From Candidatus Enterousia sp. (lineage in GTDB: Bacteria > Pseudomonadota > Alphaproteobacteria > Rs-D84), in assembly GCA_045539815.1 (NCBI GenBank), contig JAZQGC010000009.1, positions 9,064 to 73,063 on the forward strand: a stretch of 64,000 bases of DNA. Direction: 5' to 3'. Positions within the stretch are counted from its first letter, which is position 1; the number at the start of each line of letters is the position of its first letter. Of this stretch, positions 3,713-55,533 are shown one piece after another. The notes beneath the pieces were generated by a model. The model was not told the origin of the DNA, searched no databases, and was given only the letters and a program-made list of their open reading frames with translations. Made by a program: the position numbers and the translations under genes.

Positions 3713-4993
3713 ATGAAAAAACAGTTGGGTTTATTGTTTGGAACGTTGTTTGCGTTGTGTGGCGCAGATGCATCTGCGGCGACAACGTGGGGAATGCGTG
3801 CCGGGTCCAGTGCAGATTTGTCCACTGGGGCGTCAACGCGTACACAAGAAAGCGTTAATTATAAAAAATATCAGACGCGTTCAACAACATATGAAACAAA
3901 AGACGCAGGTGATTTATATTATACAAAACCACAAAATCGCAGCGCATTGTATAAACAATACGAAGGTGCAAATTCTTCGTCTGCACGCGTAACTAAAAAG
4001 ACTGTGCGCAAGACCCGTTCTGAAACGGTTATTAATAAAATGAAGCGTAAATATTATTTGGCGCATCCGTTCTTTCAACCATTGCAGGGCAAGTTTGGTT
4101 CAATTACAGATTTGTCGTATTTGTCATCTGAATATGATATTAAATTGCCGACCGGGGGGTCTGGACTGTATGCAGATTTAGGAAATGGTATTCAAGAGCT
4201 GTCTTTTAATGGACTGGAAGGGAATTGGAACAGATCTGAATTGTTGATAAAAGAAGATTTTAGCTATGGTATTACAGACCGCTTGGCGTTGCTTGTAATG
4301 GCACAATATAATTCAACAGACGATGAATATAAATGGGCCGCTGGTACAGGTGACAAGATTAGCAACAAGGGCCTGAATATGTATGGCGCAGGTGTACAGT
4401 GGCGCTTTGTTGATAATAATAAATGGATTGCAACAGCGTCCGCTTATTATCAACATCAAAAAGATATTTCTAATAATTTCTTGTTAGACATCAAGGCAGG
4501 ATACAAGATTGCACAATCAACCATTTATGGTTTGGCACGCGGTTGGTATCTGGATTTTGAAGGCGACTATTATGGCAATGGTGTTGTTGGTAAAGATTTG
4601 AATAATCAAGACAGCGCGTTTATGTTGGTATATGGTGATGGCGGCAGCGCCAGGTTTATAGAAGGGGGAATTGGTGTTTTCAGTGTGTTAAATCCTGATT
4701 GGACGCTGAATCTGGAAGCCGTTCTGGGGGATTATGATTGGCATACCCAGGCAAATATCAAGGGGGCAATTGGTTGGCAACCAAATGATTGGTTTGCGTT
4801 GAACCTGTATGCAAAAACTGTGTTTTACAGCGATGTTGATGGTAAAAAGCTGGATACACTGTATTGGTTAGATGGTGTCTATGAAGATAGTCAATTGCAA
4901 AAACCGTTAACATATTTTAAAAATATTGGAATGTCTGAATTGGATAACTATTCTGAATATTCAATTGGTGTTCAGGCAATATTCCAGTTCTAG
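3713..4993 (+). CDS. outer membrane beta-barrel protein (signal peptide, C-terminal Phe)
   Basis: Signal peptide MKKQLGLLFGTLFALCGADASAA. The sequence has alternating amphipathic strands and ends in QAIFQF. Family not identified. Confidence 0.55.
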   Translation: MKKQLGLLFGTLFALCGADASAATTWGMRAGSSADLSTGASTRTQESVNYKKYQTRSTTYETKDAGDLYYTKPQNRSALYKQYEGANSSSARVTKKTVRKTRSETVINKMKRKYYLAHPFFQPLQGKFGSITDLSYLSSEYDIKLPTGGSGLYADLGNGIQELSFNGLEGNWNRSELLIKEDFSYGITDRLALLVMAQYNSTDDEYKWAAGTGDKISNKGLNMYGAGVQWRFVDNNKWIATASAYYQHQKDISNNFLLDIKAGYKIAQSTIYGLARGWYLDFEGDYYGNGVVGKDLNNQDSAFMLVYGDGGSARFIEGGIGVFSVLNPDWTLNLEAVLGDYDWHTQANIKGAIGWQPNDWFALNLYAKTVFYSDVDGKKLDTLYWLDGVYEDSQLQKPLTYFKNIGMSELDNYSEYSIGVQAIFQF

Positions 4994-7112: not shown

Positions 7113-7538
7113 GTGGTTAACTTTTTTTTATATATTATTTGTGATATAATGATTGTATTAAATTACAAAGGAATTGGCAAGTTGGTAAATAAAAATTATG
7201 ATTTTACATTGGCTGTTGCAAATCTGGCCGCGGCGGCAATTAATGCAAATCCTGAATTGTCCATGCAAGATGCGGTAAATAACGCACGTGAAATTCTGCG
7301 CGGAACAACAATAACAAAACAACAAATCGAAGATTCTGTACAGTACGATAAGATTCAATGTCTGGAAGATGGTACATGGCATGTTATGTTGCGCAGATAT
7401 TTAAAACGCAGATTTAATATGACACCACAACAATATAAGCAAAAGTGGGGATTGCCGGATGATTATCCATTTGTTGCGGCTGCGTATTCTGATAAACGAT
7501 CAAAAATTGCCAAGAAAAATAAACTGGGTAAAAAATAA
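7113..7538 (+). CDS. MucR/Ros-family transcriptional regulator (start uncertain: GTG 7113, ATG 7149 or TTG 7182)
   Basis: The C-terminal segment IQCLEDGTWHVMLRRYLKRRFNMTPQQYKQKWGLPDDYPFVAAAYSDKRS aligns with the Ros/MucR zinc-finger region (ITCLECGK…[20 protein letters not shown]). The second Cys and both His ligands are replaced. Confidence 0.6.
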   Translation: MVNFFLYIICDIMIVLNYKGIGKLVNKNYDFTLAVANLAAAAINANPELSMQDAVNNAREILRGTTITKQQIEDSVQYDKIQCLEDGTWHVMLRRYLKRRFNMTPQQYKQKWGLPDDYPFVAAAYSDKRSKIAKKNKLGKK

Positions 7539-9560
7539 TTGTGTGCAAAGGATTGCTGTATGAAAGTCTGTGTTGATATCCATGATAAACGTTGGAATAA
7601 ATATAATATTGATTTTGATAAAATTGTCTGTGCGGCGGTTTCTGGCGTACGCAAGGATTCTGAGGTTTCAATTATCTTGACTGATGATGCTGAAATTCAT
7701 GGTGTGAACAAGCAGTATCGTGGTGTGGATAAACCGACAAATGTTTTGTCGTTTGAATTGGGTGATGATATTTTATTGGGTGATATTTATATATCGTTAG
7801 ATACTGTAAAGCGCGAGGCTGAACAGGCCGGTATCAGTGTCGAAGATCATGTTACGCATATGGTTGTGCATGGGGGATTGCATTTGTTGGGCTATGATCA
7901 TATTACCGATGATGAAGCGTCTGTCATGGAAATGAAGGAAATAAAAATATTAAAAAAGTTGGGAATAAAAAATCCTTATACGGATGATGTGGTGTCGTCA
8001 TGTAAATGCGGTGATTGTTGCCCCGGTGGTTGTTTTGTCGCAGGAATAAAAAAATTAAAAATAAAGCAAAATGGTTTTATGCAATACTTTCTGTACGGCG
8101 TATTTGGTGTGTTGGCCAGTTTGGGGTTTGCACCGTTTTATTATGGTTTGTTTACGGTCTTGGGGGTTGCTGGTGCGTATTGGTTGACGGTCAGAAATAC
8201 GGATAAAAGTGGGCTTTGGAAGACATTGTTGCGTGTTTCGCCGTTTGGCGCGTTGTATTGTTTGTCTATGTTTTGGTGGGTATTAAATTCTATATATGTT
8301 GTGCCAGAAATTGCGTCGCAATACGCAATATGGACACTGCCCGGGGTCGTTGGATTAATGCTGGCCGGTGTGATGATATTTTCATGGCCGTTTATTGCCG
8401 TGACCAAGGTTCGTGCAAATGCCATGGGGCGTGTTTTCTTGTTCGCGTCCGTATGGGTGTTAGTGTTGTGGGCGCGTGAGTGGATGTTTACTGGTTTCCC
8501 ATGGAACCCGATTGCAAATATCGCAATGCCGTATCCAGTGTTGGCAAATTCAATGTCTGTTTTCGGTGCGCTGGGGTTAAGTTTTTTAATTGTTGGTTTG
8601 ATTGCGTCTGTTGTTGAAGTGTGCAGAAGAAAAAAATATGCAATTTATACATTTGTTTTCTTTGTGTTGTTGGCTGTATGCGCATGTTTTGCTGGGGTGC
8701 ATAATATGCGATTGGCCGATGTTGGTGCCACGGATGAACATGTTATGTTGCGAATTGTGCAACCTGGATTGTCGCAAAGTCAAAAGGCCACCCATAACAG
8801 GGTAGAGGCATTGCAAAAAGCATCAGATAATTTATATAATTTAGTAAAATTGGCAAATGTTGATAATAATGCTGATATTATTTTGTTCCCAGAAACGGCG
8901 TATCCCTTTGTTGTTATGAAAGATGATTTGATAGATGTTGCAAGATATCTGAATAAGCCAATGTTAATTGGTGCAAATGTTTTTGACGCGGGCGGTTTAT
9001 TTAATTCGATGGTTGTAGCCCAAGAAAATGGCCGTATACAACAGATTTATAGCAAGACACATTTGGTGCCGTTTGGTGAATATAGGCCGTTGGGGGTTTT
9101 GCCGTCACCAGTTAATTTAACGCCTGGTAATGGACCGGAAATTATAAGTGTTGGAAATTTTGTTTTTGCACCGGCGATTTGTTATGAAATTATTTTTTCT
9201 GATTCTTTGTTAGAATCTGGGGTGGGGCGTGTTGATGCAATTGTTAATCTGACAAATGATAATTGGTTTGGTAATACGCCGGGCGTTTATCAGCATCTGG
9301 ATATGGTGCGCCGTTATGCCATTGAGTCAGGGGTGCCAATTGTGCGTGCAAATTATTCTGGTATCAGCGCATTTGTTGCGTCAGATGGTGAAATTATTTC
9401 TGCGTTGCCGGTTGGCGCAGTTGATGTGTTGGATGGTTTTGTATGGGGCGCACATCAAACACCATATCGACAGATTGGATTAAATGGTTGGTTGATAATT
9501 ATTTTGTCTGTATCTGTGTTTGGGATTTTTATATCAAAGCTGATAGATCGTAAAAATTAA
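7539..9560 (+). CDS. ybeY/lnt: in-frame fusion ORF: endoribonuclease YbeY domain (N-terminal ~150 aa) joined to apolipoprotein N-acyltransferase Lnt (C-terminal ~510 aa)
   Basis: The YbeY H3xH zinc motif HMVVHGGLHLLGYDH is present. A Cys-rich linker VVSSCKCGDCCPGGCF follows, then the Lnt TM region (LGFAPF, EWMFTGFPWNP) and a CN-hydrolase domain (ILFPETAYP…). There is no stop codon between the two domains. Confidence 0.75.
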   Translation: MCAKDCCMKVCVDIHDKRWNKYNIDFDKIVCAAVSGVRKDSEVSIILTDDAEIHGVNKQYRGVDKPTNVLSFELGDDILLGDIYISLDTVKREAEQAGISVEDHVTHMVVHGGLHLLGYDHITDDEASVMEMKEIKILKKLGIKNPYTDDVVSSCKCGDCCPGGCFVAGIKKLKIKQNGFMQYFLYGVFGVLASLGFAPFYYGLFTVLGVAGAYWLTVRNTDKSGLWKTLLRVSPFGALYCLSMFWWVLNSIYVVPEIASQYAIWTLPGVVGLMLAGVMIFSWPFIAVTKVRANAMGRVFLFASVWVLVLWAREWMFTGFPWNPIANIAMPYPVLANSMSVFGALGLSFLIVGLIASVVEVCRRKKYAIYTFVFFVLLAVCACFAGVHNMRLADVGATDEHVMLRIVQPGLSQSQKATHNRVEALQKASDNLYNLVKLANVDNNADIILFPETAYPFVVMKDDLIDVARYLNKPMLIGANVFDAGGLFNSMVVAQENGRIQQIYSKTHLVPFGEYRPLGVLPSPVNLTPGNGPEIISVGNFVFAPAICYEIIFSDSLLESGVGRVDAIVNLTNDNWFGNTPGVYQHLDMVRRYAIESGVPIVRANYSGISAFVASDGEIISALPVGAVDVLDGFVWGAHQTPYRQIGLNGWLIIILSVSVFGIFISKLIDRKN

Positions 9561-9587: not shown

Positions 9588-9821
9588 TTATATCGACACT
9601 TGGTGTTCAAGTGTTGGGTGTGATATAATTTGTTGTAAAACCCATACGCGTATCGCAGATGATAAATTTTTGTCGGGAGAGCGGTTGGAATCTATGTCGT
9701 TTATAATTGCTGCAACCGAACGATTCTGCCGTATAGCCAGTTTTTGTAATGCGTCAAAAAATTCTGGTTCCAGTGTGATGCTGGTTTGATGACCAGATAG
9801 TGAAACTGATATTTTTTTCAT
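9588..9821 (-). CDS. ribbon-helix-helix protein (RHH_4-like, alphaproteobacterial conserved)
   Basis: The sequence ISVSLSGHQTSITLEPEFFDALQKLAIRQNRSVAAIINDID…NLSSAIRVWVL matches the RHH_4 family pattern. Confidence 0.55.
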   Translation of the reverse strand: MKKISVSLSGHQTSITLEPEFFDALQKLAIRQNRSVAAIINDIDSNRSPDKNLSSAIRVWVLQQIISHPTLEHQVSI

Positions 9822-9825
9822 TTCT

Positions 9826-10260
9826 TTATATCTTTCCTGCGATTAAACAGTCGAACATTGCGCGATAGCCGTCATCGTATTTGCGCAATGGTGCCAATGA
9901 TATGTTATCCAACATATAAAATACACCAAACGCATCAAATGCAAACCAAAATAAATCGTTGCGACCAAATAATGTTTTGCCAAATGTTTTGCCCAGGCCA
10001 GACATGTCGTCATTTATCTTTAATATACTGGGGATTGGATAGGTGTTATTGCGTGGTGTTTCGTCGGGTGCGAATATGTATCCTGTATCAAGATTGATAC
10101 TGCCCGCGTGACGATATAATTCAGATATCTCGGGCGGTAACATTGCAAAACGACGTTGTTGCAGTGCGCCATTTAATAACATTATTTGATTTGCGTGTGC
10201 AGGTGGTGCAATTTTTGCGCCACGGGATTTAATTGTTGCTAAGAATTCTTGACATGTCAT
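9826..10260 (-). CDS. hypothetical protein (144 aa)
   Basis: ORF with protein-like composition, in a co-directional operon arrangement. No recognisable motif. Confidence 0.45.
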   Translation of the reverse strand: MTCQEFLATIKSRGAKIAPPAHANQIMLLNGALQQRRFAMLPPEISELYRHAGSINLDTGYIFAPDETPRNNTYPIPSILKINDDMSGLGKTFGKTLFGRNDLFWFAFDAFGVFYMLDNISLAPLRKYDDGYRAMFDCLIAGKI

Positions 10261-10286
10261 GCGATTCCTGCTTGGTCCTGTTGTTT

Positions 10287-10796
10287 TTATAAATCGCGAT
10301 CAGATACGATTTGGGCCGCGATTGTTTCTGTTATGCGGTCTTCGGTTGCGTTTCCGCCCGTGCCACCCAGACTGGAACTGGCAGGCAGGTATATCTTTTT
10401 TGCCGGATTTGGTAACCATATTTGTGAATTTCCGTGCTGGGATATAATAAATTTGTCCAAGTTAAATGAATGCGGAAATGTTTTGCAAATAAACAGGTTG
10501 TCCATATCCAGTTGTCCGCCCATCTGTAACGGTATGCGAAAACGAAAAGACAGGTTTTTTGGCATTGTGTTACCGGTTAATAAATTCATAAATTCGTCCT
10601 GGCTTAGGTTTAACATTACCAATGTGTCGACGCTGTCTGACAATGTGGACATGAATTTTTTACATAAAATTTTGTATTTATTAAACCAGTCTGGGGTTAA
10701 TTTTGTCGCATTTGGTGTTATCAAACGCAGGGGTAAATCTTTCATCCCCATATCAGAAACTATTCTTTTTGCATCTTGTTCAGTCAATTTTGCCAT
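10287..10796 (-). CDS. hypothetical protein (169 aa)
   Basis: Its start overlaps the stop of the upstream gene (ATGA at 10796). No recognisable motif. Confidence 0.45.
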   Translation of the reverse strand: MAKLTEQDAKRIVSDMGMKDLPLRLITPNATKLTPDWFNKYKILCKKFMSTLSDSVDTLVMLNLSQDEFMNLLTGNTMPKNLSFRFRIPLQMGGQLDMDNLFICKTFPHSFNLDKFIISQHGNSQIWLPNPAKKIYLPASSSLGGTGGNATEDRITETIAAQIVSDRDL

Positions 10797-11686
10797 TAAA
10801 TCTTGCCTATGTAGTCAATAACAGTTGATATATACATGGAAAATGCTTCGAAATTTTCAGGGTCCTGGGCAGGTTGGTTTTCGTGTTCCGACATATATTT
10901 CCGTAATTCTTCAACAGATTCAAATGTTAATATAGATTCTGTTGGGGCAGGTGCGGTTGGATTTACAACAAATCCATGAATGTTTATATCAATGTTGTCC
11001 AGTGTGTCTGAAAATACCTGTTGCAGGGCGGATACCGCATCAATAATGCGTTCGGGCGCAACAGATGACGCGCCGATATATACCGTTTCGTTTGTGCCAA
11101 TCGCAAATACAGGAACGGTAAAGCCGTGAATTCGTGGCGATGGTTTAATTGTATATTTGGCGTTTTCAAAGATGTCCAGAATCTGGGGTGTGTCTGGTAA
11201 TTCTGGTGCTGGCATGCCCCTGGAAATGTTTGGCATCGTGGTCGCCGGTGTGTTTACAGGCGTTGATGCCGGTGTAATGGTGCCCGGTTGTGGTGATATT
11301 GGCGCTGTGGGTGTGTTGGATAATCTTTGTGGGCGAACAGGTGTGTTGGGCGCAATGGTGTTGATAACAGGTGTTGCGTTCTGTTCATGGGGGGGCGGTG
11401 TCTTTTTTGATGTGCGTTTCAAGAAAGCGATTCGTATGCTTTTTATCTGGGGGTGGACCAGCATGTAAGATCCAATCAATATAATCATGCCAGATATTAT
11501 TATGGACAGATAAAAAGATGTCTTGATTGGTGTTTGTGATGCCTGCATATATGACAAATAGCGCCAATGTGCACCAGAAAAGATATCAAAGCCAAATTGC
11601 GTATTAAACCAAAAACATGTTGTCAGTATCGCGATTAATAACCACAATACTACAAGTAAAATTTTATTTAATTTATCCGTCTTCAT
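10796..11686 (-). CDS. hypothetical membrane protein with Pro/Thr-rich linker and C-terminal globular domain
   Basis: Two N-terminal TM helices, a P/T-rich low-complexity segment of about 90 aa, and a C-terminal domain of about 130 aa. Confidence 0.5.
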   Translation of the reverse strand: MKTDKLNKILLVVLWLLIAILTTCFWFNTQFGFDIFSGAHWRYLSYMQASQTPIKTSFYLSIIISGMIILIGSYMLVHPQIKSIRIAFLKRTSKKTPPPHEQNATPVINTIAPNTPVRPQRLSNTPTAPISPQPGTITPASTPVNTPATTMPNISRGMPAPELPDTPQILDIFENAKYTIKPSPRIHGFTVPVFAIGTNETVYIGASSVAPERIIDAVSALQQVFSDTLDNIDINIHGFVVNPTAPAPTESILTFESVEELRKYMSEHENQPAQDPENFEAFSMYISTVIDYIGKI

Positions 11687-11727
11687 GATTGGTATTGTAT
11701 CATATTTATGATAAAGTAAAAAGCATT

Positions 11728-12402
11728 ATGATGAATAAAAATATTATTTTTGATGATTTGTCCGATGTTGTCGCCGTCTGGTGCGGGGCAGATATAGAAG
11801 CAGCAGAATTAGCGCGTATGGTTGATAATGTGTCCAGACAAAATGTTGGCGCGTTGTCTGTTGTGCCGACGGCGGTGCCTGTGGTATGGCCGTGGATGGA
11901 GGAAATGAAAACTAAAATATTTGCGCGGTTTTATTTCCCAAACAGTGAAATATCCGATGACCAGATATCTGATGTTACAATCAGAATAAATAACGCATTT
12001 AAACAAGGTGCACATGGCGCCCAGATTTTCATGCCGTATGCGGCGTTGGCCAATTTGGTTGAACAGACACATGTTATCAGGGGGGATTTGTTCTTTAATA
12101 AAGATTTGGTTATCGGTATTGATATTGCGGATATTGCGTCGTCTGATTTGGATGAATTGTTTGGAAATTTACGCAAGATAAACGCATCTGCATTGATGCT
12201 GGTTTTGACCAAGGATTTGGGGGCAAAATCTGACTTTGTTGGGCGTTTGTACGGTTTGTTGGAAAATTGGAACAGTGCAAACAATTTTGATTTGCATTTT
12301 GCGCTGGGGCGGAATTTTGTGCGTATAGAACAAGCCGCGCGATTAATCCAGGTCATGCAACCCCAGTTGGCAAAAAAAATGAAGTTCTTTGTTAATTACT
12401 GA
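11728..12402 (+). CDS. hypothetical protein (faint DeoC-like TIM-barrel pattern at N-terminus; unassigned)
   Basis: Divergent from the minus-strand operon. The N-terminal pattern IIFDDLSDVVAVWCGADIEAAELARMV…GALSVVPTAVPVV loosely resembles the deoxyribose-phosphate aldolase N-terminus. Confidence 0.45.
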   Translation: MMNKNIIFDDLSDVVAVWCGADIEAAELARMVDNVSRQNVGALSVVPTAVPVVWPWMEEMKTKIFARFYFPNSEISDDQISDVTIRINNAFKQGAHGAQIFMPYAALANLVEQTHVIRGDLFFNKDLVIGIDIADIASSDLDELFGNLRKINASALMLVLTKDLGAKSDFVGRLYGLLENWNSANNFDLHFALGRNFVRIEQAARLIQVMQPQLAKKMKFFVNY

Positions 12403-33303: not shown

Positions 33304-34607
33304 CAAGAAACTATTTCACCACGCAATGATGCCTTGTTCGCAGCAGTAATTTTTATCTGGACCAATTCTGGCGCGGTGCCGTTGTCGGGTGCAGGTACAA
33401 TACATTGCTGCATATATGGCGTGCGATATATTAATTTTGTTCCTGTTTTGTCGGGACCTTCAAGCAGGCAGGTTAATGTTTTTTCAATGCAACTGATATT
33501 AAATTCGCGTTGAATTTCATTTAAGTAATTATCCAATATTGCCAGACGTTGCGCCTTGGTATTTTCTGGGATTTGATCTGGCATAATTGCCGCCGCAGTA
33601 TGTGGACGTGGCGAATATTTAAATGAATAAGAATTTATATATCTGACTTGTTCGGCAATTTTCATTGTTTGTTCGAAATCCGAATCGGTTTCGCCAGGGA
33701 ATCCAACAATAAAGTCAGATGATATTTGTATGTCCGGACGTGCAATTCGCAGTTTACGAATTATGTCTGAATATAATTCCAGTGTGTATGGACGATTCAT
33801 GCGTTGTAAAATATTTTGTGAACCACTTTGAATAGGCATGTTTAAAAATGGCAACAATTTTGGTTCTGTTGCAAACATTTCTATCAGGTCATCAGTCATT
33901 TCTGTTGGATAACTGGATGTAAAGCGTATACGCATGATTTCTGGGATTTTTGCCGTTTCGCGGATTAAATCAGACAGGCGGTATGTTTTGCCATTTTTGT
34001 CTGTGTATTTATAACCGTTAACGTTTTGTCCCAAGAAACAAATTTCAATTGCGCCTGTTTTTGCCGCGTGAATTGTGTCACGCATGCATGCGTCAAAATC
34101 ACGTGATAATTCGCGTCCGCGTGTATATGGTACGATGCAGTATGTGCAACAATGGTTGCAGCCTTCTTGGATTGGAATATATGCCACGCGTGGTGATTTT
34201 ACCATTTGGGGCAGGGTATCAAATTTTTCCAAACCACCCAGGTCAATATTCAATAATTTTGCATCTGGATTGTCCAGTATGTCTGATAATTTATGATGGC
34301 TTTGTGGGCCCAGAACAAAATTTAAGTCCGGGATTCTGCGAAACGCGTCGGCGCCAGATTCCCGTGCAACACAACCGACAATGCCGAACAGGGCGGATGG
34401 CTTTTTTGCGCGTCTGATGCGCCCCAGTGCAGAAAAAACTTTATCCGTTGCCTTGGCACGAACAGCGCATGTGTTCAGTATAATTATGTCTGCGTCAGGA
34501 ATACGGTCGGTACGTTGCATACCACGATGTTCCAACATCGCGGCGATTCGCCAACTGTCGTAAACATTCATCTGACAACCAAAGGTTTGGATAAAGAATT
34601 TTTTCAT
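33300..34607 (-). CDS. miaB: tRNA-i6A37 methylthiotransferase MiaB
   Basis: MTTase N-terminal domain FIQTFGCQMN, radical-SAM motif CNHCCTYC, and a TRAM domain. Confidence 0.85.
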   Translation of the reverse strand: MKKFFIQTFGCQMNVYDSWRIAAMLEHRGMQRTDRIPDADIIILNTCAVRAKATDKVFSALGRIRRAKKPSALFGIVGCVARESGADAFRRIPDLNFVLGPQSHHKLSDILDNPDAKLLNIDLGGLEKFDTLPQMVKSPRVAYIPIQEGCNHCCTYCIVPYTRGRELSRDFDACMRDTIHAAKTGAIEICFLGQNVNGYKYTDKNGKTYRLSDLIRETAKIPEIMRIRFTSSYPTEMTDDLIEMFATEPKLLPFLNMPIQSGSQNILQRMNRPYTLELYSDIIRKLRIARPDIQISSDFIVGFPGETDSDFEQTMKIAEQVRYINSYSFKYSPRPHTAAAIMPDQIPENTKAQRLAILDNYLNEIQREFNISCIEKTLTCLLEGPDKTGTKLIYRTPYMQQCIVPAPDNGTAPELVQIKITAANKASLRGEIVSC

Positions 34608-52701: not shown

Positions 52702-55533
52702 ATGATAAGTCAAAAAATCGTAGGTTCTGTCAAAAATGCAGTTGGGACTGTTTTCTTGTTGATGGGTGCGTTTTTGGTTTGTTCTACATTGGTGTCAATG
52801 CGTACGGTGTTGGCTGATCCGATTGCGCCAATTAATGACCAGGCTGTTTTGGTGCAACAGTTGGGAACTCAACAGGGTAATGCGCGCGGTGCGGCATTGC
52901 GTGAAAGTCCACGAAATCGTGCGACGACGCGTACAAATGTTGCACGTACAACTGTGGCGCCTGCAACAAATTCACGTGCGGTGGCAACACGTGCGGCAAA
53001 TTCGCGTGCGGCCACGGTGAATAATGCGCGTGCAACAACACGGGCGGCGGCAAAACGCGCCGTGTCTTCGCGTGCAACGGCAACACCAACGCGTGGGGTT
53101 GTGCAAAATCAACGCAGTGTCGTTTCGCGCAGTGCAAATGTTGCAAACAGAACAACAGCAATAAATAATCGTAATGTTCGTGCCCGTACGGCTGTGGCCG
53201 CGGATTCTGCGCGCGTTTCTTTGCAGGGCAGTGCAATTCGTGGTTCGAAAACAAGTGGTGGAACCAGTTATTCTTATCTGACGAATAAACTGTATACGGG
53301 AAATTATTCCAATATTATCGATTCAACCACAGGATTGATTTCAGCGGATGCGTTTAATAATTGTTTGGAATCTTATTATGCGTGTATGGATGAAATCTGT
53401 ACCGCGCGTAACCAGGCCCAGCGTCGTTGTGCGTGCGCTGGACGCGTAACCGCATTTGCAGAGGCAGAAGCCGCACTGGAAACAGCAAACGAAGAATTAA
53501 TCAAGGCGTCTGGTGAATTGGCATTGTTGGTTGCAAATCGTGGTAAAGATGTATCAGAAGCATTTCAATTAACCGAAGCGGAACAGGTTATGAACTGTGT
53601 TTCATGGCAAGAGGTTACAAATCAATATGGTACAAATTCTGAACAGGCCATAGATTGGTGTTCGTCGCATGGAATCTTTAATGATGGCAAGGTGGTAACA
53701 AGTTGTGGTATGCCAGATTATTGTTCCAATAACAGCTTTGGATTTGATGTCAAGAATTTAAATGGAAACGGGTCTGATATATTGGCGTCTTTACAGGCGT
53801 GGGCTGATGCCAAAGAACGCACAATCACCATTTTAACAGATGATGAAAATTCTTTGTTAAATGCATTCGAAGGTGTTTCTGGTGTGGTCAGCAATTTGGC
53901 CGGATTGAGTGATGGTTTTGCTGCAAATGAAGAAACCAAGGATTCTTTGGCGGAAACATGGGGGTATGAATTGTTTGCACATGCCCATAACGAGGTTTGC
54001 AGTCGTGTTCTGGATTCTTGTTTTAATGGTATTTATGAATCGTGTGGTTCACCATCGTCGTTCGGTGGAAAATGCGCAAATGGCCAGTCTTCGAATTGTC
54101 CGTTTAACTATAATTCCAAGATAAAAGTCAGTGCAAAGGGCGAAATTGATTTGTTCGAACGCGGTGTGTCGTCCACAACCAATGCCAGTGCGTCTTGTTT
54201 TGGATATACATCAACATCGGGTGATCCATATTCTAATTTGCGTGGGCCGGTTGCTGATGCGCGTCGCAGTATTATGAATAAGTATTTGTTGGACGCAAAT
54301 GCTGATTGCGATTTGTATGGCGAACAATTGCGTACAACCGCACAAAATATCGCCTATCAAAAGGTTGCTGCACAACAGGCGTTGCAACAAAAACGTTTGG
54401 AATTCGCAGTTGAAGAAGAAGAAGAAATCTTGACTGCGGCGATTGAAGCGGGAACAAACTTTAATGAATGTTTAAGTGAAATTTATGATTGTTATGAAAG
54501 TACATCTGACAGTGAACCAAATTGGCCAGATGCGCGTGTGAAAACTTATTGTGCGCAGATTGCAAATGTACCGCATTGCTATGAAGAGATGATTTGTAAT
54601 CCTTCTACGGCACAATTCAAGGCAATCATAGACAAGGCAGACAATGCACAATGTGATAATAATCAAGATTATACAAAAAATACTTGCCGTAATATTGTTA
54701 CATTGAATGAAATCTTGAAAGGTACGGGCGTGAATGGCGCGTCTGTTGAATTGGATGGCAAAGGAAATTCTGCTGCAATGCGTGAACAATGCTTGTTGGA
54801 TGCGGGCGTGGCAGATATCCGTAACTGGTCCACAGATGTTGTTCTGGAACAAAGATGTTCTGTGGCTGAGTTGCCGAAAAATGCAACAACTGGTTACAAG
54901 GATAAAAATGGAAATTGTGTTGCGCTGACATGTAACGAAGGGTATTTGTTGATTAATGGTGAATGTAATCAATCGTCAAGATTGGACTGCACAAAGGCTA
55001 TCCCAGGCGCAAAACAGGCGTATAGAGAACTGGAAAATGGACAGTATGGTGATTGTAAATTGGATTCTTGTCTGGATAATTATGAAAAAGTTGGCAATGA
55101 ATGTAAGCCAAACACTGAATCTTGTCCGGCAGATACATTGACTGTTCTGAATGCAATCAGTGGAACACGTGTTTGGGGCGGTAGTGCGTGGGATGGTTGT
55201 GTGATAAAAGCATGTAAATCTGGGTTCGAATTGTATAACAATACATGTTATAAAACAACTGCTTCGTGTGATATCCAAAATGCCAAGGTTGCACGGCAGG
55301 ATTTTGTTAATGGTTCATATGGCGCGTGTTATGTTGTAGAGTGCGAAACCAATTATCAACCCAATGCAGATGAAACAAAATGCGAACCAAAAACCGTGGC
55401 TTGCACAACACTGCCAGCAAATGCAACGGCTGGGACACGGACATGGCAGGGAACTGATTGGTCGGAATGTGAAATAACCAAGTGCGTTGATGATTATGAT
55501 TTAGTCGACAACAAGTGTGTTAAAAAAGAATAA
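52702..55533 (+). CDS. large (943 aa) secreted/membrane-anchored cysteine-rich repeat protein
   Basis: N-terminal hydrophobic signal/anchor. An Arg/Thr/Ala-rich low-complexity tract of about 110 aa (RNRATTRTNVARTTVAPATNSRAVATRAANSRAATV…). A central Cys-rich domain. Five C-terminal modules of about 45 aa, each with four Cys of the form C-x2-3-C-x2-(G/N/D)(Y/F)-x5-7-C, e.g. CVALTCNEGYLLINGEC. Confidence 0.6.
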   Translation: MISQKIVGSVKNAVGTVFLLMGAFLVCSTLVSMRTVLADPIAPINDQAVLVQQLGTQQGNARGAALRESPRNRATTRTNVARTTVAPATNSRAVATRAANSRAATVNNARATTRAAAKRAVSSRATATPTRGVVQNQRSVVSRSANVANRTTAINNRNVRARTAVAADSARVSLQGSAIRGSKTSGGTSYSYLTNKLYTGNYSNIIDSTTGLISADAFNNCLESYYACMDEICTARNQAQRRCACAGRVTAFAEAEAALETANEELIKASGELALLVANRGKDVSEAFQLTEAEQVMNCVSWQEVTNQYGTNSEQAIDWCSSHGIFNDGKVVTSCGMPDYCSNNSFGFDVKNLNGNGSDILASLQAWADAKERTITILTDDENSLLNAFEGVSGVVSNLAGLSDGFAANEETKDSLAETWGYELFAHAHNEVCSRVLDSCFNGIYESCGSPSSFGGKCANGQSSNCPFNYNSKIKVSAKGEIDLFERGVSSTTNASASCFGYTSTSGDPYSNLRGPVADARRSIMNKYLLDANADCDLYGEQLRTTAQNIAYQKVAAQQALQQKRLEFAVEEEEEILTAAIEAGTNFNECLSEIYDCYESTSDSEPNWPDARVKTYCAQIANVPHCYEEMICNPSTAQFKAIIDKADNAQCDNNQDYTKNTCRNIVTLNEILKGTGVNGASVELDGKGNSAAMREQCLLDAGVADIRNWSTDVVLEQRCSVAELPKNATTGYKDKNGNCVALTCNEGYLLINGECNQSSRLDCTKAIPGAKQAYRELENGQYGDCKLDSCLDNYEKVGNECKPNTESCPADTLTVLNAISGTRVWGGSAWDGCVIKACKSGFELYNNTCYKTTASCDIQNAKVARQDFVNGSYGACYVVECETNYQPNADETKCEPKTVACTTLPANATAGTRTWQGTDWSECEITKCVDDYDLVDNKCVKKE

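What the first reader, a model, noticed from the sequence alone, without database searches (positions are those of the whole stretch)
7539..9560. In-frame YbeY-Lnt fusion through a Cys-rich linker
A complete YbeY endoribonuclease domain (H3xH zinc site intact) runs without a stop codon into a complete apolipoprotein N-acyltransferase. The 30-aa linker between them is VVSSCKCGDCCPGGCFVAGIKKLKIKQNG. In other alphaproteobacteria ybeY and lnt are separate genes, usually with corC/tlyC between them, and corC is absent here. This could be a real bifunctional membrane-tethered YbeY, an operon-compaction artefact where Lnt initiates internally at the MQYF Met, or a sequencing error that removed the ybeY stop.
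Basis: partly seen in the sequence, partly recalled or inferred. Interest (0 to 1): 0.55.

Follow-up and report, generated by a model that had tools for sequence, protein, structure and literature searches.

The report
Conserved membrane-anchored YbeY–Lnt fusion protein
In a group of small-genome gut alphaproteobacteria, the ribosomal-RNA-processing nuclease YbeY is a real part of the same protein as the membrane enzyme Lnt. So a ribosome-maturation factor is probably held at the inner face of the cell membrane, which bears on why these two genes are so often neighbours in bacteria.

Summary
One ORF (7539-9560; the likely start is ATG 7560, giving 666 aa) encodes a complete YbeY, a linker of about 24 aa with five cysteines, and a complete Lnt.

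It is not a sequencing error. Two independent metagenome assemblies carry the same ORF at 99% identity. All 120 best protein clusters (63-99% identity) have the same three-domain architecture, and so do 7 GTDB species loci.

Internal initiation at the MQYF Met is unlikely. That Met is replaced by W, A, V or L in most relatives, and no in-frame start codon in the linker region has a Shine-Dalgarno-like motif.

The catalytic residues of both halves are invariant: YbeY H104/H108/H114 and Lnt E445/K499/C541. Lnt's N-terminus is cytoplasmic, so YbeY should be tethered to the inner face of the membrane.

All fused Lnts but one form a single clade (NJ bootstrap 90-98) that includes Candidatus Enterousia (order Rs-D84, genomes under 1 Mb). 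None of the fused loci has corC or phoH next to the gene.

The Cys motif C-x4-CCPG is nearly invariant in the crown group and absent from deeper fused lineages. It is therefore a later addition, possibly metal-binding.

This is a new architecture built from two known families. Public records label it only as Lnt, and I found no paper describing it. Interest is moderate.

The parts
7560..9560 (+). Fused ybeY-lnt gene (666 codons plus TAA). The open frame extends upstream to TTG 7539.
   Evidence: Homologues and independent gene calls are 666 aa and start MKVCVD/MKVYVD.
7548..7552 (+). Shine-Dalgarno-like AAGGA, 7 nt upstream of ATG 7560.
   Evidence: SD-like motifs also precede the fused-gene start in L001 and L003-L006.
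7560..7982 (+). YbeY endoribonuclease domain (aa 1-141, ending at the conserved NPY).
   Evidence: Pfam PF02130 4.6e-36 and TIGR00043 7e-39. Residues 22-141 align to residues 27-151 of the 155-aa E. coli YbeY chain 1xm5.
7869..7901 (+). Zinc-binding motif H104-x3-H108-x5-H114 (HGGLHLLGYDH).
   Evidence: Invariant in alignment A1. Aligns to HGSLHLLGYDH of E. coli YbeY. Coordinates checked.
7983..8054 (+). Inserted linker (aa 142-165, TDDVVSSCKCGDCCPGGCFVAGIK) that belongs to neither parent family.
   Evidence: It is the gap between the YbeY and Lnt alignments to solved structures. AF2 pLDDT is below 50 over residues 141-166.
8001..8027 (+). Conserved Cys motif C148-x4-C153-C154-P155-G156. The window also has C150 and C158, five Cys in all.
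   Evidence: Top-residue frequencies across 121 sequences are C148 1.00, C153 0.98, C154 1.00, P155 1.00 and G156 0.96. Codons at these residues vary synonymously between lineages.
8079..8081 (+).
   Evidence: Not conserved: the commonest residue in the column is W at 0.44. No SD-like motif lies upstream.
8055..8732 (+). Lnt membrane domain (aa 166-391): a basic juxtamembrane segment and a short predicted helix (aa 157-165, straddling the linker boundary), then TM1-TM7. TM1 is aa 173-190 (nt 8076-8129).
   Evidence: PF20154 LNT_N. AF2 predicts seven long helices between residues 173 and 391. Hydropathy. Aligns to P. aeruginosa Lnt 5n6m.
8745..9440 (+). Periplasmic nitrilase-type (CN-hydrolase) domain of Lnt. 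The catalytic triad is E445 (8892-8894), K499 (9054-9056) and C541 (9180-9182).
   Evidence: PF00795 3.5e-22 and TIGR00546. The triad residues are invariant in A1 and align to PET / K..LVPFGEY / ICYE of solved Lnt. Triad definition from PMC5500888.
9462..9554 (+). C-terminal transmembrane helix (TM8, aa 635-665).
   Evidence: AF2 helix 635-665. Hydrophobic stretch 638-664.
7113..7538 (+). Upstream neighbour, a Ros/MucR-family regulator that ends 21 nt before ATG 7560. It may be co-transcribed. It sits where phoH/ybeZ lies in other alphaproteobacteria.
   Evidence: PF05443 1.3e-25. The same neighbour is present in L081 and L082, and the upstream ORF of L004 ends in a similar C-terminal sequence (no domain search was run on it).

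Best explanation
This is a real, evolutionarily fixed gene fusion. It encodes one polypeptide of three parts: an N-terminal cytoplasmic YbeY (a zinc-dependent single-strand endoribonuclease and 16S rRNA 3'-end / 30S maturation factor), a short linker, and the eight-helix membrane enzyme Lnt, whose nitrilase domain faces the periplasm.

Lnt's N-terminus is cytoplasmic, so YbeY would be held at the inner face of the membrane. The tether is about 25 residues here and only 5-10 residues in some relatives.

The fusion most likely arose once, in the ancestor of a clade of genome-reduced, mostly gut- or rumen-derived alphaproteobacteria (Candidatus Enterousia / order Rs-D84 and deeper relatives). The ancestral arrangement was phoH-ybeY-corC-lnt. 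corC was lost from between the two genes, and then the ybeY stop codon was lost.

The C-x4-CCPG cysteine motif was inserted later, in the crown group, and is under purifying selection. I infer that it binds a metal (a zinc-thiolate or metallothionein-like site) or otherwise organises the membrane-proximal tether.

**Shown:** the ORF; its conservation; intact catalytic residues in both halves; protein-level selection on the linker; absence of a conserved internal start; monophyly of nearly all fused forms.

**Inferred:** translation as one chain that stays uncleaved; the topology; the role of the cysteines; that this is the cell's only YbeY.
For: **Architecture**
- establish the ORF and the three domains.

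**Conservation of the fusion**
- All 120 best clusters are fused and 661-698 aa long.
- Seven GTDB species have an uninterrupted fused ORF.
- Among 1.84 billion 50%-identity representatives there are eight full-length fusions. The three that carry source names are alphaproteobacterial or 'Rickettsiales' MAGs labelled only 'apolipoprotein N-acyltransferase'.

**Independent assemblies**
- ERZ27316723 and ERZ28594298 carry the same ORF. It differs from the window at 19 synonymous and 7 non-synonymous codons; within the linker the count is 3 to 1.

**Selection**
- The invariant Cys and Pro codons vary synonymously (TGT/TGC, CCN) across lineages.
- Invariant residues include YbeY H104/H108/H114 and R54, and Lnt E445/K499/C541.

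**Internal start**
- Met174 is not conserved, and no in-frame start in the linker has an SD-like motif.
- No promoter-like site lies in the linker.

**Topology**
- Lnt has eight TM helices with both termini in the cytoplasm (PMC5500888).
- AF2 gives seven helices before the nitrilase domain and one after it.
- A K-rich segment precedes TM1.

**Phylogeny and route**
- In an NJ tree of the Lnt domain, all fused sequences except P0136 form one clade (bootstrap 90-98).
- L008 and L027 show how easily the step can happen: ybeY and lnt are in the same frame, separated by one stop codon and 1-3 further codons.

**Precedent**
- M. tuberculosis Rv2051c is an Lnt-Ppm1 two-domain protein; PMC3850990 reports a functional Lnt domain, and Ppm activity that survives deletion of it. 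The two are separate adjacent genes in M. smegmatis (PMC3850990).
Against: - There is no protein-level evidence. Cleavage in the low-confidence linker (AF2 pLDDT below 50) or SD-independent internal initiation cannot be excluded.
- I could not search whole genomes of the clade. A second stand-alone ybeY, or a relocated phoH or corC, might exist.
- One fused protein (P0136) falls outside the fused clade, and a stand-alone, divergent Lnt (P0140, locus L083) occurs near the L006 subclade. Fusion and fission may therefore have happened more than once.
- Deeper fused lineages and L004 have no cysteines in the linker. The Cys motif is therefore not needed for the fusion to work.
- The tree is a simple NJ/BLOSUM62 tree.
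Confidence: 0.8

Rival explanations
1. The ORF is one reading frame, but the cell makes two proteins from it. Lnt would start at an internal codon (Met174 in this genome), so the 'fusion' would be only operon compaction.
For: An in-frame ATG lies at 8079-8081, just before TM1. L006, L004 and L005 also have in-frame Met codons in the linker or at the start of TM1. In E. coli lnt is predicted to have its own sigma-E control within the ybeZYX-lnt operon (bioRxiv 10.1101/2023.03.20.533420).
Against: Most of the 121 aligned homologues carry W, A, V or L instead of this Met; W is commonest at 0.44. No SD-like motif precedes any in-frame ATG, GTG or TTG in the linker or TM1 region of the window or six fused loci, while most scanned gene starts have one. 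No promoter-like site lies in 7980-8080. The linker is conserved at the amino-acid level with synonymous codon changes, so it is translated and under selection.
Confidence: 0.08
2. The fusion is translated as one chain and then cut in the flexible linker. This would release soluble YbeY, so the fusion would only enforce 1:1 co-expression.
For: AF2 predicts the linker with very low confidence, so it is probably flexible. YbeY's known partners, the 30S subunit, uS11 and Era, are cytoplasmic (PMC10582724).
Against: Several fused lineages have only about 5-10 residues between the YbeY C-terminal NPY and TM1 (P0123, P0126, P0128, L006), which leaves little room for a processing site. No common cleavage motif is shared by the Cys-containing and Cys-free linkers. 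Nothing tests this directly.
Confidence: 0.1
3. A sequencing or assembly error (a lost stop codon or a frameshift) joined two separate genes.
For: None, apart from the rarity of this architecture among bacteria overall.
Against: The same frame is found in independent assemblies from different samples, in 120 clusters from NCBI, ENA, JGI and Logan and in 7 GTDB species. Indels in the linker are all in frame.
Confidence: 0.01

Closest known systems
E. coli-type ybeZ(phoH)-ybeY-ybeX(corC)-lnt operon and its alphaproteobacterial counterpart phoH-ybeY-corC-lnt
   Same: The same two enzymes occur in the same order and orientation. Of the 80 GTDB loci examined, 51 show ybeY-corC-lnt. The E. coli operon is described in bioRxiv 10.1101/2023.03.20.533420.
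   Different: Here corC and phoH are absent from the locus, and ybeY and lnt form a single ORF joined by a new linker.
Mycobacterium tuberculosis Rv2051c (Lnt-Ppm1 two-domain protein)
   Same: Lnt is covalently joined to a cytoplasmic enzyme that is a separate, adjacent gene in relatives (M. smegmatis MSMEG_3860/3859). The Lnt domain is a functional N-acyltransferase, and Ppm activity persists when it is deleted (PMC3850990). Lnt's membrane domain acts as the anchor.
   Different: The partner there is a polyprenol-monophosphomannose synthase attached at Lnt's C-terminus, and it belongs to the same lipoprotein-modification pathway. Here the partner is an RNase attached at the N-terminus, with no known pathway link.
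YbeY-Era fusion proteins (Clostridia, some Selenomonadales, Thermoleophilum)
   Same: YbeY is the N-terminal module of a natural fusion. That fusion has been read as evidence for a functional partnership (PMC10582724).
   Different: Era is a soluble ribosome-assembly GTPase and a known YbeY partner. Lnt is an integral membrane acyltransferase with no known role in ribosome biogenesis.
Membrane-anchored RNases (B. subtilis RNase Y with an N-terminal TM helix; E. coli RNase E with an amphipathic membrane-targeting helix). Cited from general knowledge, not checked here.
   Same: An RNA-processing nuclease confined to the cytoplasmic face of the membrane. This shows that such confinement is compatible with global RNA processing.
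   Different: The protein families are unrelated, and the anchor in those cases is a dedicated helix rather than another enzyme.
Metallothionein-like Cys clusters (CxC, CC and CxxC runs). A resemblance only.
   Same: The linker has 3-6 Cys within about 11 residues. In L002 it expands to 12 Cys in CNCGCGGKCNCVDCKCKNCSCCNCPG.
   Different: It is much shorter than known bacterial metallothioneins. No family model matches it, metal binding is untested, and fused relatives without any Cys exist.

Membership tests
YbeY (PF02130 / TIGR00043, rRNA maturation RNase) | Profile match above the curated cut-off over the full domain | tested here: met
   PF02130 scores 124 bits against a cut-off of 25, covering profile positions 11-129 of 129. 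TIGR00043 scores 132.8 bits against 45. Residues 22-141 align to E. coli YbeY 27-151.
YbeY (PF02130 / TIGR00043, rRNA maturation RNase) | Zinc-binding H-x3-H-x5-H motif and the conserved R in the DKPTNVLSF region | tested here: met
   H104, H108, H114, R54 and P59-T60-N61-V62 are invariant in the 22 diverse fused sequences. Coordinates checked.
YbeY (PF02130 / TIGR00043, rRNA maturation RNase) | Single-strand endoribonuclease activity and a role in 16S rRNA 3' maturation | not testable with these tools
   Requires biochemistry or complementation of a ybeY deletion.
Apolipoprotein N-acyltransferase Lnt (TIGR00546; PF20154 + PF00795) | Profile match above the curated cut-off for the equivalog model | tested here: met
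   TIGR00546 scores 243.1 bits against a cut-off of 132.9, covering profile positions 1-395 of 395. LNT_N scores 68 bits and CN_hydrolase 79.4 bits.
Apolipoprotein N-acyltransferase Lnt (TIGR00546; PF20154 + PF00795) | Glu/Lys/Cys catalytic triad (E. coli E267, K335, C387) | tested here: met
   E445 (FPET), K499 (SKTHLVPFGEY) and C541 (AICYE) are invariant in A1 and align to the corresponding motifs of solved P. aeruginosa Lnt. The triad is defined in PMC5500888.
Apolipoprotein N-acyltransferase Lnt (TIGR00546; PF20154 + PF00795) | Eight TM helices, with a periplasmic nitrilase domain between TM7 and TM8 and both termini cytoplasmic | tested here: met
   AF2 predicts long helices at 173-190, 196-212, 219-245, 260-283, 288-309, 332-356 and 361-391, then the alpha/beta domain at 396-627, then helix 635-665. 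Hydropathy agrees. Orientation is inferred from homology and the K-rich segment before TM1; it was not measured.
Metallothionein-like / zinc-thiolate linker | A conserved set of at least 3-4 metal-ligand residues with fixed spacing | tested here: inconclusive
   C148, C153 and C154 are conserved at 98% or more, with fixed C-x4-CC spacing in the crown group. They are absent in L004 and in the deeper fused lineages. The AF2 model is uninformative here (pLDDT below 50). Metal binding is untested.
Lipoprotein lipobox ([LVI][ASTVI][GAS]C) | The Cys is preceded by a signal peptide with an n-region and h-region, with L at -3 and small residues at -2 and -1 | tested here: not met
   VSSC lies at residue 148, after a 147-aa soluble enzyme domain with no hydrophobic h-region. 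Position -3 is polar or variable across homologues.

The most novel reading that the evidence does not exclude
In a whole order-level lineage the only YbeY is permanently tethered, within a few residues, to the membrane through Lnt. The conserved C-x4-CCPG linker would be a metal-binding regulatory or dimerising module, for example a zinc reservoir or a 'cysteine switch' acting on the HxxxHxxxxxH site. On this reading, late 30S maturation or quality control happens at the membrane and is coupled to envelope lipoprotein maturation. The ancient and so far unexplained ybeY-lnt synteny would then reflect a real functional link rather than operon inertia.
Probability: 0.2. Interest if true: 0.75.

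Novelty: new variant of a known kind. Interest (0 to 1): 0.5.

Why it matters
YbeY is nearly universal in bacteria, and its exact mode of action is still described as unclear. Its genes sit persistently next to conserved metabolic enzyme genes (cdd, dagK, pdxJ, acpS), and a recent review calls the meaning of such associations 'enigmatic' (PMC10582724); ybeY also lies in one operon with lnt in E. coli.

A natural fusion fixed across a clade shows that selection tolerates, and may favour, a YbeY held at the cytoplasmic face of the membrane. In some lineages the tether is only 5-10 residues long. That constrains models of how YbeY reaches the 30S platform.

The fusion also offers a ready-made construct for experiments. 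The full-length protein, a Cys-to-Ser linker mutant and the separated halves could each be tested for complementation of an E. coli ybeY deletion and of Lnt depletion.

There are two practical points. These proteins are labelled only 'apolipoprotein N-acyltransferase' in public records, so genome surveys that rely on product names could score YbeY as missing in these reduced genomes. The locus is also a clear example of gene fusion following loss of an intervening gene in a reduced genome.

If the fusion is merely neutral compaction, its importance is modest.

Tried and rejected
- **Structure prediction.** AlphaFold2 on the 22-sequence alignment gave usable YbeY and Lnt halves (mean pLDDT 76.5). 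The linker, residues 141-166, scored below 50, so the model says nothing about where the cysteines sit. I ran no fold search because both halves are already identified by sequence.
- **Exact look-up of the window protein.** The gene-position index had no record of it. The 99%-identical P0001 was used instead.
- **Literature.** Searches for YbeY with Lnt, fusion, fused, domain architecture or PhoH found no description of this architecture. The main YbeY review (Liao et al. 2021, doi 10.1042/BST20200669) is not held, so I could not check it.
- **RNA families.** Rfam found only two tRNAs in the window and nothing near the gene.
- **Promoters and terminators.** The scan found no internal promoter-like site in the linker and nothing decisive overall.
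- **Lipobox reading of VSSC.** Considered and rejected: there is no signal peptide and the -3 position is wrong.
- **Alternative genetic code.** I considered whether the in-frame stops in L008 and L027 reflect recoding. They are TAA and TAG, and each is followed by an ATG that begins lnt. They are ordinary stops.
- **Other CCPG-like motifs.** A search of the other long ORFs in the window found only chance hits in unlikely frames.
Full report

Yes. The six-frame ORF list shows one uninterrupted frame at 7539..9560 on the + strand, 673 aa from the first TTG. The DNA reads straight through the junction.

- Pfam places YbeY at residues 26-141, LNT_N at 190-353 and CN_hydrolase at 436-624.
- The NCBIfam equivalog models for YbeY (TIGR00043) and Lnt (TIGR00546) both score far above their curated cut-offs.
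- The likely start is ATG 7560, which gives 666 aa. An AAGGA lies 7 nt upstream, and homologues and independent gene calls are 666 aa long. All residue numbers below use this 666-aa numbering.
- Residues 22-141 align to residues 27-151 of the 155-residue E. coli YbeY. Residues 168-639 align to P. aeruginosa Lnt from its residue 24.
- Only about residues 142-165 (TDDVVSSCKCGDCCPGGCFVAGIK) therefore belong to neither parent. I read the following basic stretch (KLKIKQN) as Lnt's own cytoplasmic N-terminus.

**2. Is it an artefact?**

No.

- Two metagenome assemblies from different samples (ERZ27316723, ERZ28594298) carry the same locus with the same neighbours and a 666-aa fused gene.
- Against the window that gene shows 19 synonymous and 7 non-synonymous codon differences. 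Within the linker the count is three synonymous to one non-synonymous.
- A search of 5.8 billion protein clusters returned 858 relatives. The 120 best (63-99% identity, 661-698 aa, from NCBI, ENA, JGI and Logan) all have YbeY + LNT_N + CN_hydrolase.
- Seven GTDB species-representative genomes have an uninterrupted fused ORF.

**3. Is Lnt made separately from an internal start?**

Unlikely.

- The window's Met174 (MQYF) is a minority state. The commonest residue in that column of the 121-sequence alignment is W, at only 0.44, and most homologues carry W, A, V or L.
- I scanned the window and the fused GTDB loci for every in-frame ATG, GTG or TTG from the end of YbeY into the first transmembrane helices (L002's frame was mis-set, so it gave no data). 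None has an SD-like motif at a functional distance. The gene starts of the window, L001 and L003-L006 do have one (AAGGA, AGGTG, AAGG or GGAG); L007's does not.
- No sigma-70-like promoter match falls in the linker.
- The linker is conserved as protein. C148, C154 and P155 are invariant, C153 is at 0.98 and G156 at 0.96. N171, Q175 and Y176 at the start of Lnt are also invariant.
- These invariant residues are encoded by different synonymous codons in different lineages.
- All length differences in the linker are in frame.

**4. Are both halves functional?**

Both halves look functional. In an alignment of 22 diverse fused proteins (62-78% identity to the window), the following are invariant:

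- the YbeY zinc ligands H104/H108/H114;
- R54 and the PTNV core of the DKPTNVLSF motif (P59-V62, plus S64 and F65);
- the Lnt triad E445/K499/C541, equivalent to E. coli E267/K335/C387 (PMC5500888).

AlphaFold2 reproduces the Lnt plan: seven long helices at 173-391, an alpha/beta domain at 396-627 and a final helix at 635-665. Crystal structures show eight TM helices with both termini in the cytoplasm (PMC5500888). YbeY has no signal peptide, and a lysine-rich segment precedes TM1. The predicted arrangement is therefore a cytoplasmic YbeY tethered to the inner face of the membrane, with the nitrilase domain in the periplasm. This topology is inferred, not measured.

**5. Distribution and origin**

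Among the 80 best GTDB loci:

| Arrangement | Loci |
|---|---|
| ybeY-corC-lnt, the classical form (50 with phoH upstream) | 51 |
| ybeY and lnt adjacent, no corC | 5 |
| Fused | 7 |
| No ybeY within 2.5 kb | 17 |

- None of the seven fused loci has phoH upstream. The window has neither phoH nor corC anywhere in its 64 kb.
- In L006 and L007 miaB directly precedes the fused gene. In the window miaB lies 25 kb away.
- L003 is named Candidatus Enterousia sp.. That genus belongs to the uncultured order Rs-D84, whose members have genomes under about 1 Mb (PMC12306168).
- An exhaustive profile search of 1.84 billion 50%-identity representatives found only eight full-length fused representatives, plus fragments. 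Everything else was ordinary Lnt of 470-550 aa.
- The three fused representatives that carry names are alphaproteobacterial or 'Rickettsiales' MAG proteins labelled simply 'apolipoprotein N-acyltransferase'.
- In a bootstrapped NJ tree of the Lnt domain, all fused proteins except P0136 form one clade (bootstrap 90-98). The adjacent-but-unfused gut lineages (L008, L027, L030, L035) group with a corC-bearing relative (L052) elsewhere in the tree.
- The simplest history is a single fusion in the ancestor of this clade, after corC had been lost from between the genes.
- L008 and L027 show how small the last step is. There ybeY and lnt are in the same frame, separated only by TAA or TAG and one to three further codons before the lnt ATG.
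- P0136, and a stand-alone divergent Lnt (P0140, locus L083) near the L006 subclade, suggest occasional independent fusion or fission.

**6. The linker**

- The cysteine motif is a feature of the crown group only: the window, L001, L002, L003, L005 and P0121.
- Most sequences have three Cys in the linker. The window has five. L002 has twelve, in CNCGCGGKCNCVDCKCKNCSCCNCPG, which resembles a metallothionein.
- L004 and the deeper fused lineages (P0122-P0128, P0141, L006, L007) have no Cys. Some join NPY to TM1 through only about 5-10 residues.
- The fusion therefore does not need the cysteines. They are a later addition that is strongly conserved.
- Metal binding is my best guess, because of the CxC/CC spacing, the expansion in L002 and the fact that YbeY is a zinc enzyme. 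Nothing here tests it, and the AF2 model is uninformative for this segment.
- A lipobox reading of VSSC is rejected: there is no signal peptide and the -3 position is wrong.

**7. Comparison with what is known**

- The gene order is that of the well-known ybeZYX-lnt operon.
- Natural YbeY fusions to Era are documented and have been read as evidence of partnership (PMC10582724).
- Lnt fused to a cytoplasmic enzyme is documented in M. tuberculosis Rv2051c (Lnt-Ppm1); its Lnt domain is functional, Ppm activity persists when that domain is deleted, and relatives carry separate genes (PMC3850990).
- Membrane-anchored RNases (RNase Y, RNase E) are a functional analogy from general knowledge.
- I found no paper describing a YbeY-Lnt fusion. 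The main YbeY review could not be read, so a mention there cannot be excluded.

**8. Verdict**

This is a real, conserved, bifunctional fusion gene, and a new domain architecture of two known families. It probably arose by operon compaction in a genome-reduced lineage.

- It is interesting because it puts a core ribosome-maturation factor at the membrane, and because it bears on the unexplained ybeY-lnt synteny.
- Two things temper that interest. The fusion may be selectively neutral, and there is no protein-level evidence.
- Interest is 0.5.
- The most novel reading still open is obligate membrane-coupled YbeY function with a metal-binding regulatory linker. I give it a probability of about 0.2.

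Noticed in passing
L008 8440-8580; L027 8440-8640: In two gut alphaproteobacterial genomes, ybeY and lnt are adjacent with no corC and lie in the same reading frame. Only TAA or TAG and one to three further codons separate them before the lnt ATG, so one point mutation would fuse them. L008 is labelled 'Lachnospiraceae bacterium', which is probably a mis-binned contig.
   Followed up: partly
L002 about 8410-8500 (linker of the fused gene): The linker is expanded to a metallothionein-like run of 12 cysteines, CNCGCGGKCNCVDCKCKNCSCCNCPG, built largely from repeated TGT/TGC-AAN codon units.
   Followed up: partly
L083 1059-2480 (protein P0140): This is a stand-alone Lnt closely related to the fused L006/P0126 subclade, and it is not preceded by ybeY. 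Its conserved LVPFGEY motif is changed to LVPLRER. It may be a fission product or a divergent paralogue.
   Followed up: partly
window 33309-34598 (-); L006 6718-8010; L007 6655-7989: miaB directly precedes the fused gene in L006 and L007. That looks like a remnant of a miaB-phoH-ybeY-corC-lnt cluster with phoH deleted. In the window miaB lies 25 kb away on the other strand, and a Ros/MucR gene sits upstream of the fusion instead.
   Followed up: partly
window 9826-11686 (-) and 11689-12402 (+): Four consecutive ORFs (144, 169, 296 and 237 aa) next to a ribbon-helix-helix gene (9588-9821, -) have no Pfam match. The same block is conserved in L081 and L082.
   Followed up: no
window 3713-4990 (+) and 52702-55530 (+): Two long ORFs (426 aa and 943 aa) have no Pfam match at E <= 1e-5, although they sit among ordinary housekeeping genes (ftsK, PBP, recJ, gatA/gatB, gyrB/parE-like).
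   Followed up: no
L003 10038-10193: A short second Lnt-like tblastn match (36% identity over 52 aa) lies just downstream of the fused gene's stop codon. It may be a duplicated fragment.
   Followed up: no
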